DNA from: Planctomycetia bacterium
GTDB taxonomy: Bacteria; Planctomycetota; Planctomycetia; Pirellulales; UBA7805
Direction of reading: 5' to 3'
Assembly (NCBI GenBank): GCA_021413585.1
Contig: JAIOQB010000260.1
Location: 1 to 50,016, forward strand
Length of the DNA: 50,016 bases
In this document: piece by piece, positions 36,722 through 36,808 of the stretch
How the letters are laid out: every line of letters begins with the position of its first letter
Numbering within the stretch: the first letter of the stretch is position 1
Position numbers and translations under genes: made by a program
Notes under the pieces: model-generated
Told to the model about the DNA's origin: nothing
Seen by the model: the letters and a program-made list of their open reading frames with translations, nothing else
The model's database searches: none

Positions 36722-36808
36722 CGTCCGCGCCAGACCGCAAGAGCCTACAAACATTCTACGAAAGTAGATCGAGGTTTTGCCGCTCTTGGAACTTGCGCGG
36801 ACATTTTT
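36722..36808 (+). ncRNA. minimal Y RNA-like ncRNA E (stem + conserved box, no tRNA-like domain)
   Basis: terminal stem GTCCGCGC/GCGCGGAC (compensatory), conserved caagagcctacaaacattc box, T5 terminator immediately before next gene. Confidence 0.5.

What the first reader, a model, noticed from the sequence alone, without database searches (positions are those of the whole stretch)
36722..36808. Fifth, minimal Y-RNA-like element between the AAA+ ATPase gene and the downstream E2-position gene
An 87-nt element repeats the conserved caagagcctacaaac box and a compensatory terminal stem (GTCCGCGC/GCGCGGAC) plus a T5 run. It lacks the tRNA-like domain. Its terminator sits ~20 nt before the start codon of the next gene. 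It could act as a stem-only Y RNA (Ro-binding module alone) and/or as an intra-operon attenuator separating the Rsr/AAA half of the cluster from the conjugation half.
Basis: seen in the sequence. Interest (0 to 1): 0.6.

Follow-up and report, generated by a model that had tools for sequence, protein, structure and literature searches.

The report
Short Y-RNA-like leader before conjugation genes
The 87-base element is real: it is a short member of a family of Y-RNA-like genes next to a distant bacterial relative of the Ro60 protein, it is conserved in the same place in many Planctomycetes, and it appears to have its own promoter and terminator just ahead of the next gene block.

Summary
Observation confirmed. 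Window 36723-36808 (+) folds as an 8-bp closing stem, a bulged region, a 7-bp second helix, the ..AGCCUACAAAC box, a small GAAA hairpin and U5. A covariance model built from 16 short relatives scores it at 81.9 bits. The model finds about 200 same-strand relatives in 82 related loci, with strong covariation.

It is the sixth such element in the window, not the fifth. Four are long, with a tRNA-like T-loop. Two are short (33379-33479 and this one).

The neighbouring 541-aa protein is a remote Ro60 homologue by profile and by fold. Its presence tracks the elements across loci.

A short element sits just upstream of the "E2-position" gene in about 30 Planctomycetota loci, including the two closest relatives. 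None of them has the AAA+ gene, which is a lineage-specific insertion.

18 of 26 of these elements have a -10-like hexamer placing +1 at the first stem base. Two thirds end in a U-run. The next start codon follows 7-82 nt after the stem.

Best reading: an independently transcribed, stem-only Y RNA that doubles as terminator and leader of the downstream genes. Ro60-like binding and attenuation are inferred. No Rfam family matches it. I rate it a new variant of a known kind, interest about 0.6.

The parts
36687..36692 (+). -35-like hexamer TTGCCG of the element's own promoter; lies inside the last codons of the AAA+ ORF
   Evidence: Read. TTGNNN at 16-18 nt spacing from the -10-like hexamer occurs in 13 of 26 orthologous short elements.
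36711..36716 (+). -10-like hexamer TACACT; its last base is the first base of the AAA+ stop codon. It ends 6 nt before the element, so the predicted +1 is about 36723.
   Evidence: TANNNT ends 5-9 nt before the element in 18 of 26 pre-E2L short elements, against 2 of 78 long array elements. It scores 8 of 12 against the sigma-70 consensus, below the 9 of 12 threshold of the scan.
36723..36730 (+). P1 5' strand GUCCGCGC (closing stem)
   Evidence: All 8 P1 pairs show compensatory changes across 146 distinct relatives.
36731..36737 (+). Bulged 5' strand CAGACCG (family consensus CCGACCG). Candidate Ro60-binding motif with unpaired C(s), R-U and A-U pairs to UU at 36793-36794, and C36736-G36789.
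   Evidence: Pair counts: A-U 144 of 146; G-C/C-G flip 52 vs 39. The comparison with the bulged-C helix of Y RNAs (PMC4030889; 10.1101/312249) is an inference.
36738..36744 (+). P2 5' strand CAAGAGC
   Evidence: Pairs with 36782-36788. Covariation.
36745..36752 (+). Conserved box CUACAAAC. Its AAAC (36749-36752) is predicted to pair with GUUU at 36774-36777 (P3).
   Evidence: AGCNUACAAAC is nearly invariant in the family. P3 is predicted in 4 of 5 close relatives but is not well supported in alignment A2 (61% paired).
36755..36768 (+). Apical hairpin UCUAC-GAAA-GUAGA, which replaces the tRNA-like module of the long elements
   Evidence: Equivalent hairpins with different sequences occur in L001, L002, L004, L038, L081 and L082.
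36782..36789 (+). P2 3' strand GCUCUUG, plus G36789 pairing with C36736
36790..36794 (+). AACUU: unpaired AAC, then UU, of the conserved GGAACUUG motif
36795..36802 (+). P1 3' strand GCGCGGAC
36804..36808 (+). U5 run directly after the closing stem (terminator-like 3' end)
   Evidence: A T-run of at least 4 follows 16 of 24 distinct pre-E2L short elements, against 40% of long elements.
36809..36817 (+). AUG-CGC-UAG mini-ORF: remnant of the ancestral start codon of the downstream gene, which directly follows the U-run in L081, L026, L032 and L052
36815..36837 (+). 23-nt insertion relative to the closest relative L081. It duplicates TTTATGCGC and moves the start codon to 36832.
   Evidence: Alignment A7
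36832..37848 (+). Downstream "E2-position" gene (338 aa), with more than 1200 homologues. The model shows OB-fold-like N-terminal domains and no E2 fold.
33499..35124 (+). Ro60-like protein (divergent TROVE ring plus vWA); the presumed protein partner
   Evidence: Family profile vs PDB: human RO60 E = 3.7e-7, X. laevis Ro 3e-4, D. radiodurans Rsr 4e-3. Foldseek on the AF2 model: the top 12 hits are all Ro60 over the full length, E 1e-11 to 1e-7. Homologues reach the Pfam vWA_Ro60 threshold.
33379..33479 (+). Second short, stem-only Y-like element, directly before the Ro60-like gene, with TTGCGA-N17-TACACT upstream
   Evidence: 69.9 bits; no T-loop motif; upstream sequence
32637..33373 (+). Array of four long Y-RNA-like elements with a tRNA-like module (32637-32797, 32842-33001, 33014-33174, 33234-33373)
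   Evidence: Model hits of 44-54 bits. Sub-threshold Rfam YrlA hits to the tRNA-like part, E = 4.5e-5 and 0.009. T-loop motif in all four.
35240..36718 (+). AAA+ ATPase gene: a lineage-specific insertion between the Ro60-like gene and the short element
   Evidence: PF00004. Absent from 80 genome loci and from the two closest metagenome loci.

Best explanation
The element is a short-form (stem-only) member of a Y-RNA-like family encoded with a divergent Ro60 homologue.

It appears to be its own small transcription unit. A sigma-70-like promoter (TTGCCG-N18-TACACT) would start transcription at the first base of the closing stem. The closing stem plus U5 would end an RNA of about 86 nt.

Its stem carries the family's conserved bulged helix (CC-GA-CCG / GGAACUUG), which I infer to be the binding site of the Ro60-like protein. 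It lacks the tRNA-like effector module. As a free RNA it would therefore occupy ("gate") the protein rather than tether a partner.

The next gene starts 7-82 nt after the stem in related loci, directly after the U-run in several. That leaves no room for another promoter. The downstream genes (E2-position protein, JAB peptidase, ThiF/E1) can therefore only be transcribed through the element. So it is also their 5' leader, and its terminator-like stem sets, or possibly regulates, how much transcription reaches them.

Shown: the structure, conservation, position, promoter-like and terminator-like signals, and the Ro60-like fold of the neighbouring protein. Inferred: protein binding, the actual RNA ends, and attenuation.
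For: - Real structure: fold z = -5.6. P1 and P2 covary: 87% paired in 16 seed sequences with 11 pairs changed on both sides; 91.6% paired in 146 distinct sequences against 23-44% for slid controls. RNAalifold finds P1 and P2 independently.
- Family: 81.9 bits, E = 6e-19. There are 204 matches, nearly all on the gene strand.
- Two size classes: 64 of 71 short elements lack a T-loop motif, and 118 of 132 long ones have it.
- Partner: the neighbouring protein is Ro60-like. 62 of 64 loci with that protein have elements, against 6 of 17 without it; Fisher p = 7e-8, not corrected for phylogeny.
- Orthology by position: a short element lies less than about 110 nt before the E2-position gene in about 30 Planctomycetota loci, including the two closest relatives. 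These share a class-specific signature, GACCGC/GGAAC.
- Promoter: 18 of 26 have TANNNT ending 5-9 nt upstream, and 13 also have TTGNNN at the right spacing. Only 2 of 78 long elements have it.
- 3' end and leader: U-run in 16 of 24. The start codon lies +7 to +82 after the stem.
- Positional terminator: loci without the element carry a plain strong hairpin plus U-run in the same spot.
- Precedents: Y RNAs inside the Salmonella rsr-yrlBA-rtcBA operon (PMC7790460); a second, hairpin-type Y RNA without a full tRNA-like domain in each species studied (PMC4201824); modular Ro60-binding stem and gate role (10.1101/312249).
Against: - No Rfam family, including Y_RNA and YrlA, matches the element even at E <= 10 with lax filters.
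- The 5' motif only resembles the published GNCGAAN0-1G / GGUCCGA motifs; it does not match them.
- The window's copy has A where the family has C in the bulge.
- The promoter scores 8 of 12 against the consensus and was not called by the scan. Planctomycete promoters are poorly known.
- One third of orthologues lack a clear U-run.
- No alternative antiterminator structure was found. The closing stem dominates every fold, so regulated read-through has no visible mechanism.
- There are no expression or binding data.
Confidence: 0.55

Rival explanations
1. A purely cis-acting operator. The Y-like stem in the mRNA leader mimics the Y RNAs so that excess Ro60-like protein binds it. Binding would strengthen termination or block the start codon a few bases downstream. 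This would give feedback control of the downstream genes, and of the Ro60-like gene itself through the second short element. No stable trans-acting small RNA would be needed.
For: Both short elements in the window sit directly in front of a protein-coding block and have promoter-like sites upstream. The start codon abuts the U-run in L081, L026, L032 and L052. The logic is the same as ribosomal-protein leaders that mimic rRNA (general knowledge).
Against: The closing stem is already very stable without protein, so protein binding would add little. About 31 other short elements in related loci are not next to a start codon. In Obscuribacterales, short elements lie 230-310 nt before the Ro60-like gene. 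No alternative structure was found.
Confidence: 0.2
2. Mainly an intrinsic terminator or insulator between the Ro60-like/AAA+ genes and the next block. It was built from a degenerate Y-RNA copy, and its Y-like interior no longer has a function.
For: A hairpin plus U-run is the feature kept at this position even where the Y-like part is absent. L009 lacks the Ro60-like gene, yet keeps the stem, the U-run and AUGCG while having lost the box.
Against: The interior (bulged helix, P2, the box) is conserved at about 73% pairwise identity across orders of Planctomycetota, with compensatory changes and a class-specific signature. A plain terminator would not need 80 nt or a conserved promoter placing +1 at the stem.
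Confidence: 0.12
3. A decaying pseudogene copy of a long Y RNA that lost its tRNA-like module, or a chance resemblance.
For: It is shorter than its siblings. It has a C-to-A change in the bulge and a 23-nt insertion just downstream.
Against: 81.9 bits, E = 6e-19. It keeps its position in about 30 loci, including distant ones. Covariation is present. The short class is a distinct mode of the length distribution.
Confidence: 0.03

Closest known systems
Second, hairpin-type bacterial Y RNAs (Salmonella YrlB, M. smegmatis YrlB, D. radiodurans Yrn2)
   Same: A small RNA encoded beside the Ro60 homologue and alongside a longer tRNA-like Y RNA. It folds as one long hairpin formed by pairing of the 5' and 3' ends. 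In Salmonella it lies between rsr and the downstream enzyme genes of one operon (PMC4201824, PMC7790460).
   Different: There is no detectable sequence relation. The apical loops are A-rich rather than pyrimidine-rich. It has its own promoter-like site and a terminator-like end directly abutting the next start codon. The downstream genes are JAB/ThiF-type rather than RtcB/RtcA. The protein partner is a Ro60 relative too divergent for the Pfam TROVE model.
YrlA family (Rfam RF02553)
   Same: The four long siblings in the window match the tRNA-like part of the YrlA model below threshold. The element shares the stem module with those siblings.
   Different: The element lacks the tRNA-like module that defines YrlA and gives no hit to the model. 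Even the long siblings do not match the stem part of the YrlA model.
Metazoan Y RNAs (Rfam RF00019)
   Same: Size of about 85 nt. A terminal stem made from the 5' and 3' ends, with unpaired C(s) next to a CGA/UUG helix. A 3' oligo-U tail. Adjacency or association with Ro60 (PMC4030889).
   Different: Bacterial, with a sigma-70-like promoter rather than Pol III. No hit to the Rfam model. The resemblance of the bulged helix is my reading of the pair counts, not a tested equivalence.
Protein-responsive leader attenuators (for example ribosomal-protein leaders)
   Same: The order is promoter, structured leader that resembles the protein's normal RNA ligand, terminator-like stem with U-run, then start codon.
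   Different: No alternative antiterminator fold was found, and there is no evidence of protein-dependent regulation.

Membership tests
Y RNA (Ro60-associated small RNA, general definition) | Encoded next to, or bound by, a Ro60/Rsr homologue | tested here: met
   The Ro60-like gene at 33499-35124 lies 1.6 kb upstream. In relatives it is directly adjacent.
Y RNA (Ro60-associated small RNA, general definition) | A long stem formed by pairing of the 5' and 3' ends; size 80-130 nt | tested here: met
   P1 plus P2 with covariation. It spans 80 nt from stem to stem and 86 nt with the U-run.
Y RNA (Ro60-associated small RNA, general definition) | Conserved bulged helix carrying the Ro60-binding motif (bulged C; GGUCCGA or GNCGAAN0-1G) | tested here: inconclusive
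   Unpaired C(s) followed by G/A-U and A-U pairs are conserved. The sequence CC(C/A)GACCG only resembles the published motifs (PMC4201824).
Y RNA (Ro60-associated small RNA, general definition) | Physically bound and stabilised by the Ro60 homologue | not testable with these tools
   Needs immunoprecipitation or a gel shift.
Rfam Y_RNA (RF00019) / YrlA (RF02553) | Match to the curated covariance model | tested here: not met
   No hit at E <= 10, even when searching only 151 nt.
YrlA (RF02553) | tRNA-like module (T-arm, D-arm) | tested here: not met
   No T-loop motif and no tRNA or YrlA hit.
Hairpin-type second Y RNA (YrlB/Yrn2) | [quoted passage not shown] | tested here: inconclusive
   A rod-like fold is predicted, but the apical loop is GAAA and A-rich in relatives. 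Binding is untested.
Intrinsic (Rho-independent) terminator | G+C-rich stem immediately followed by a U-run | tested here: met
   An 8-bp stem with 7 G-C pairs, then A and U5. A U-run is present in 16 of 24 orthologues. The scan tool cannot call it because the "loop" is 64 nt. Activity is untested.
Transcription attenuator / regulatory leader | Promoter upstream, terminator before the ORF, and a mutually exclusive antiterminator or ligand-dependent switch | tested here: inconclusive
   A promoter-like site and a terminator-like stem ahead of the ORF are present. No competing structure was found.

The most novel reading that the evidence does not exclude
The Ro60-binding module of a Y RNA has been recruited in cis. 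Short Y-like leaders with their own promoters would sit in front of both the Ro60-like gene and the E2-position/JAB/E1 block. The amount of free Ro60-like protein would then decide, through termination or start-codon occlusion, whether the ubiquitin-like modification genes are expressed. Free protein is set by how much is tied up by the long tRNA-like Y RNAs or by damaged RNAs. This would be the first Ro60/Y-RNA-based riboregulator, and it would link RNA surveillance directly to a bacterial ubiquitin-like system.
Probability: 0.25. Interest if true: 0.8.

Novelty: new variant of a known kind. Interest (0 to 1): 0.6.

Why it matters
Bacterial Y RNAs are known from only a few experimental systems, and Rfam models just the tRNA-like YrlA type.

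This locus shows a large, uncatalogued lineage in Planctomycetota, Abditibacteriota, Cyanobacteria/Obscuribacterales and Chloroflexota. Arrays of up to seven Y-like RNAs accompany a Ro60 relative that standard domain models miss. They also accompany a ubiquitin-like protein, a JAB peptidase and a ThiF/E1 enzyme.

The short element is the piece that physically joins the RNA half to the enzyme half. It has a promoter-like site, a Ro60-type stem and a terminator-like end a few bases from the next start codon. That makes a concrete question testable: does a Ro60-like protein control gene expression through a Y-RNA mimic, or is this only a small gate-type Y RNA? I found no paper in the searchable library that links Ro60 or Y RNA to ThiF/JAB clusters.

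Tried and rejected
- Rfam at gathering and at E <= 10 gave nothing for the element.
- Pfam, NCBIfam and PADLOC gave no TROVE hit for the Ro60-like protein and nothing for the E2-position protein. A single-sequence PDB search also gave nothing. Only a family profile and a fold search revealed Ro60.
- My first heuristic for finding elements required an exact 6-mer stem. It missed many, so I replaced it with a covariance model.
- P3 (AAAC/GUUU) was left out of the model because it was only 61% paired in the seed alignment.
- I looked for an antiterminator by folding the longer context and by forbidding the P1 5' strand. Only a weak GCGCG/UGCGC hairpin appears. It lies downstream of the U-run, so it cannot affect termination.
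- I tested whether the AAA+ gene belongs to the system. It does not. It is absent from all related loci, and the AAA+ gene in L051 is unrelated beyond the P-loop.
Burroughs and Aravind 2016 could not be read. Two paper searches failed on term syntax.

Full report
- The 15-mer CAAGAGCCTACAAAC occurs exactly at 36738-36752. Four further copies with 1-2 mismatches lie at 32652, 32857, 33029 and 33249. That is 5 matches against 0.84 expected, and none of 100 shuffles reaches 5.
- GTCCGCGC (36723-36730) pairs with GCGCGGAC (36795-36802), followed by A and T5 (36804-36808).
- RNAfold gives a rod-like structure at -35.7 kcal/mol, z = -5.6. It has closing stem P1, a bulged region, a 7-bp P2 (CAAGAGC/GCUCUUG), a possible P3 (AAAC/GUUU) and an apical UCUAC-GAAA-GUAGA hairpin.
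- It has no T-loop motif and no tRNA or YrlA match.
- The next ATG, at 36832, is 23 nt after the U-run.

**2. The gene context.** On the + strand the order is:
- a 74-aa ORF ending ...VFG (32202-32426);
- an array of Y-like elements;
- a 541-aa protein (33499-35124);
- an AAA+ ATPase (35240-36718);
- the element;
- a 338-aa protein without a Pfam match (36832-37848);
- a Prok-JAB peptidase;
- a ThiF/E1-type protein.

The 541-aa protein has no Pfam TROVE hit, yet it is a remote Ro60 homologue. A profile of its family matches human RO60 (E = 3.7e-7), X. laevis Ro (3e-4), a phage TROVE protein (1.6e-3) and D. radiodurans Rsr (4e-3). Homologues reach the Pfam vWA_Ro60 threshold. The 12 best Foldseek matches to an AlphaFold model (pLDDT 72) are all Ro60 structures aligned over the full length, E 1e-11 to 1e-7. 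The long elements give sub-threshold Rfam YrlA hits to their tRNA-like part (E = 4.5e-5 and 0.009). Calling these elements Y-RNA-like is therefore justified.

**3. The family.** The downstream protein has more than 1200 homologues, and the window is from a Planctomycetia MAG. I fetched 80 genome loci around its relatives and two metagenome loci holding the closest relatives.
- A seed alignment of 16 short elements supports P1, two R-U/A-U pairs, a C-G pair and P2. It is 87% paired, 11 pairs change on both sides, 0 of 500 shuffles do as well, and slid controls reach 25-48%.
- A covariance model built from the seed finds 204 matches in 81 sources, almost all on the strand of the genes, and 11 more in the two closest loci.
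- On 146 distinct aligned matches, 91.6% of cells pair. All eight P1 pairs show compensatory changes. One inner pair flips between G-C (52) and C-G (39). Slid controls give 23-44%. That alignment is fitted to the model, but RNAalifold on eight minimal elements finds P1 and P2 independently.
- Lengths are bimodal. In the 70-125-nt class, 64 of 71 lack a T-loop motif. In the 130-170-nt class, 118 of 132 have it.
- The elements track the Ro60-like gene. 62 of 64 loci with the gene have elements, against 6 of 17 without it (Fisher p = 7e-8, not phylogenetically corrected).

**4. The window has six elements, not five.** The model hits are 32637-32797, 32842-33001, 33014-33174 and 33234-33373 (long), plus 33379-33479 and 36723-36811 (short).

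**5. The element is conserved by position, but the AAA+ gene is not.**
- The usual Planctomycetota order is Ubl, long Y array (often ending in a short element), Ro60-like gene, short element, E2-position gene, JAB, E1.
- About 30 loci have an element ending less than about 110 nt before the E2-position gene. These include the closest relatives L081 (73 bits) and L082 (79 bits).
- These elements share a signature (GACCGC...GGAAC) that differs from the long class (AACGGC...GCGAC) by a compensatory flip.
- None of the 82 related loci has the window's AAA+ gene.
- The interval between the Ro60-like gene and the element is a variable slot. Elsewhere it holds vWA proteins, an unrelated AAA+ protein or unknown genes.

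**6. Signals around the element.**
- *Promoter.* 18 of 26 distinct pre-E2L short elements have TANNNT ending 5-9 nt before the element's first base. 13 of them also have TTGNNN 16-18 nt further upstream. A simple composition null gives about 1.7 expected, binomial P about 4e-16. Only 2 of 78 long array elements have such a hexamer there. In the window these are TTGCCG (36687-36692) and TACACT (36711-36716), inside the end of the AAA+ ORF. They predict +1 at 36723, the first base of P1. The site scores 8 of 12 against the consensus, below the threshold of the scan tool.
- *The other short element.* The short element before the Ro60-like gene has TTGCGA-N17-TACACT. Its -35 lies in the 3' strand of the preceding long element.
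- *3' end.* A T-run of at least 4 follows the (extended) closing stem in 16 of 24 pre-E2L short elements, against 40% of long ones.
- *Leader.* The likely start codon of the next gene lies +7 to +82 nt after the stem. In L081, L026, L032 and L052 it directly follows the U-run. In the window, a 23-nt insertion (36815-36837) duplicates TTTATGCGC, leaves an AUG-CGC-UAG remnant and moves the start to 36832. This leaves no room for another promoter, so the downstream genes must be transcribed through the element.
- *Same position without the element.* Planctomycetota loci that lack the Y-like element but have the Ro60-like gene next to the E2-position gene carry a plain strong hairpin (-20 to -31 kcal/mol) plus U-run at the same position: L010, L019, L024, L034 and L035. 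L009 has no Ro60-like gene nearby. It keeps the stem, the U-run and AUGCG but has lost the box.

**7. Interpretation.** The best-supported reading is a stem-only Y RNA with its own promoter and a terminator-like end.
- It would bind the Ro60-like protein through the conserved bulged stem. Because it lacks the effector (tRNA-like) module, it would gate rather than tether the protein. This follows the modular view of Y RNAs in 10.1101/312249.
- It is also the obligatory 5' leader of the downstream genes, so its closing stem sets how much transcription and translation reach them.
- Whether this is regulated is open. I found no competing antiterminator fold.
- The rivals are a purely cis-acting operator for the Ro60-like protein, a terminator with a functionless Y-like interior, and a pseudogene.

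**8. Comparison with what is known.**
- Y RNAs inside an operon between rsr and downstream enzymes are known from the Salmonella rsr-yrlBA-rtcBA operon (PMC7790460).
- A second, hairpin-type Y RNA alongside a tRNA-like one is known in Salmonella, M. smegmatis and D. radiodurans (PMC4201824).
- A terminal stem with a bulged C as the Ro60 site is the defining feature of Y RNAs (PMC4030889).
- Four things differ here. No Rfam model matches. The promoter-stem-terminator-start-codon arrangement is distinctive. The Ro60 relative is divergent. The neighbours are Ubl/JAB/ThiF genes, a link I could not find in the searchable literature.

**9. Verdict.** The element is a new variant of a known kind. Binding and attenuation still need experiments.

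Noticed in passing
It is preceded by TTGCGA-N17-TACACT, and the -35 lies in the 3' strand of the preceding long element. The same arrangement occurs in L001, L004, L038 and L081.
   Followed up: partly
window 16590-23045 (+): An array of 23 tRNA hits above the Rfam gathering score, about 10 kb upstream of the Ro60-like/Y-RNA locus.
   Followed up: no
window 27496-27542 (-): Acido-Lenti-1 RNA motif, 40.7 bits (gathering score 37).
   Followed up: no
[not shown]
   Followed up: partly
window 35240-36718 (+): The AAA+ ATPase has a hydrophobic N-terminus and weak IetA/IteA-like hits. It is absent from all 82 related loci. Its last codons run over the ancestral promoter of the short element. In other loci the same slot holds vWA proteins (L015, L022), an unrelated AAA+ protein (L051) or unknown genes.
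   Followed up: partly
window 36809-36837 (+): A 23-nt insertion relative to L081 duplicates TTTATGCGC and leaves an AUG-CGC-UAG mini-ORF after the U-run. L001 has AUG-CGC-UAA at the same place.
   Followed up: yes
window 36810-36814; the same position in L001-L004, L021, L026, L032, L038, L048, L081, L082: UGCGC directly after the U-run is kept in 12 of 14 Pirellulales-type loci, whether or not it is in frame with the downstream gene. It can pair with GCGCG of the P1 3' strand when the 5' strand is unavailable. This is unexplained.
   Followed up: partly
L009:6880-6975: This locus has no Ro60-like gene within 7 kb. It keeps a P1-like stem, a U-run and AUGCG before the E2-position gene, but has lost the box and gets no model hit.
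   Followed up: partly
L043-L055 (Abditibacteriota); L056, L061, L065, L067, L069, L073, L078 (Obscuribacterales and a Planktothrix MAG): Other arrangements of the same parts. In Abditibacteriota, Y arrays of up to seven elements lie downstream of E1. In the second group, mostly Obscuribacterales, the Ubl gene abuts the E2-position gene. The Y array, usually ending in a short element, follows downstream; where the fetched stretch reaches that far, it precedes a distal Ro60-like gene.
   Followed up: no
window 32202-32426 (+): A 74-aa ORF ending ...RPEAVFG, conserved across loci and ending in Gly. It is presumably the ubiquitin-like substrate of the ThiF/E1 and JAB proteins. It has no Pfam hit.
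   Followed up: no
window 31990-32020 (+): A strong intrinsic-terminator-like hairpin (14 pairs plus TTTGTTT) just upstream of the Ubl gene. It probably marks the start of the locus.
   Followed up: no
window 41161-46524 (+): A 1787-aa, highly repetitive Asn/Gly/Ser-rich ORF downstream of the locus.
   Followed up: no
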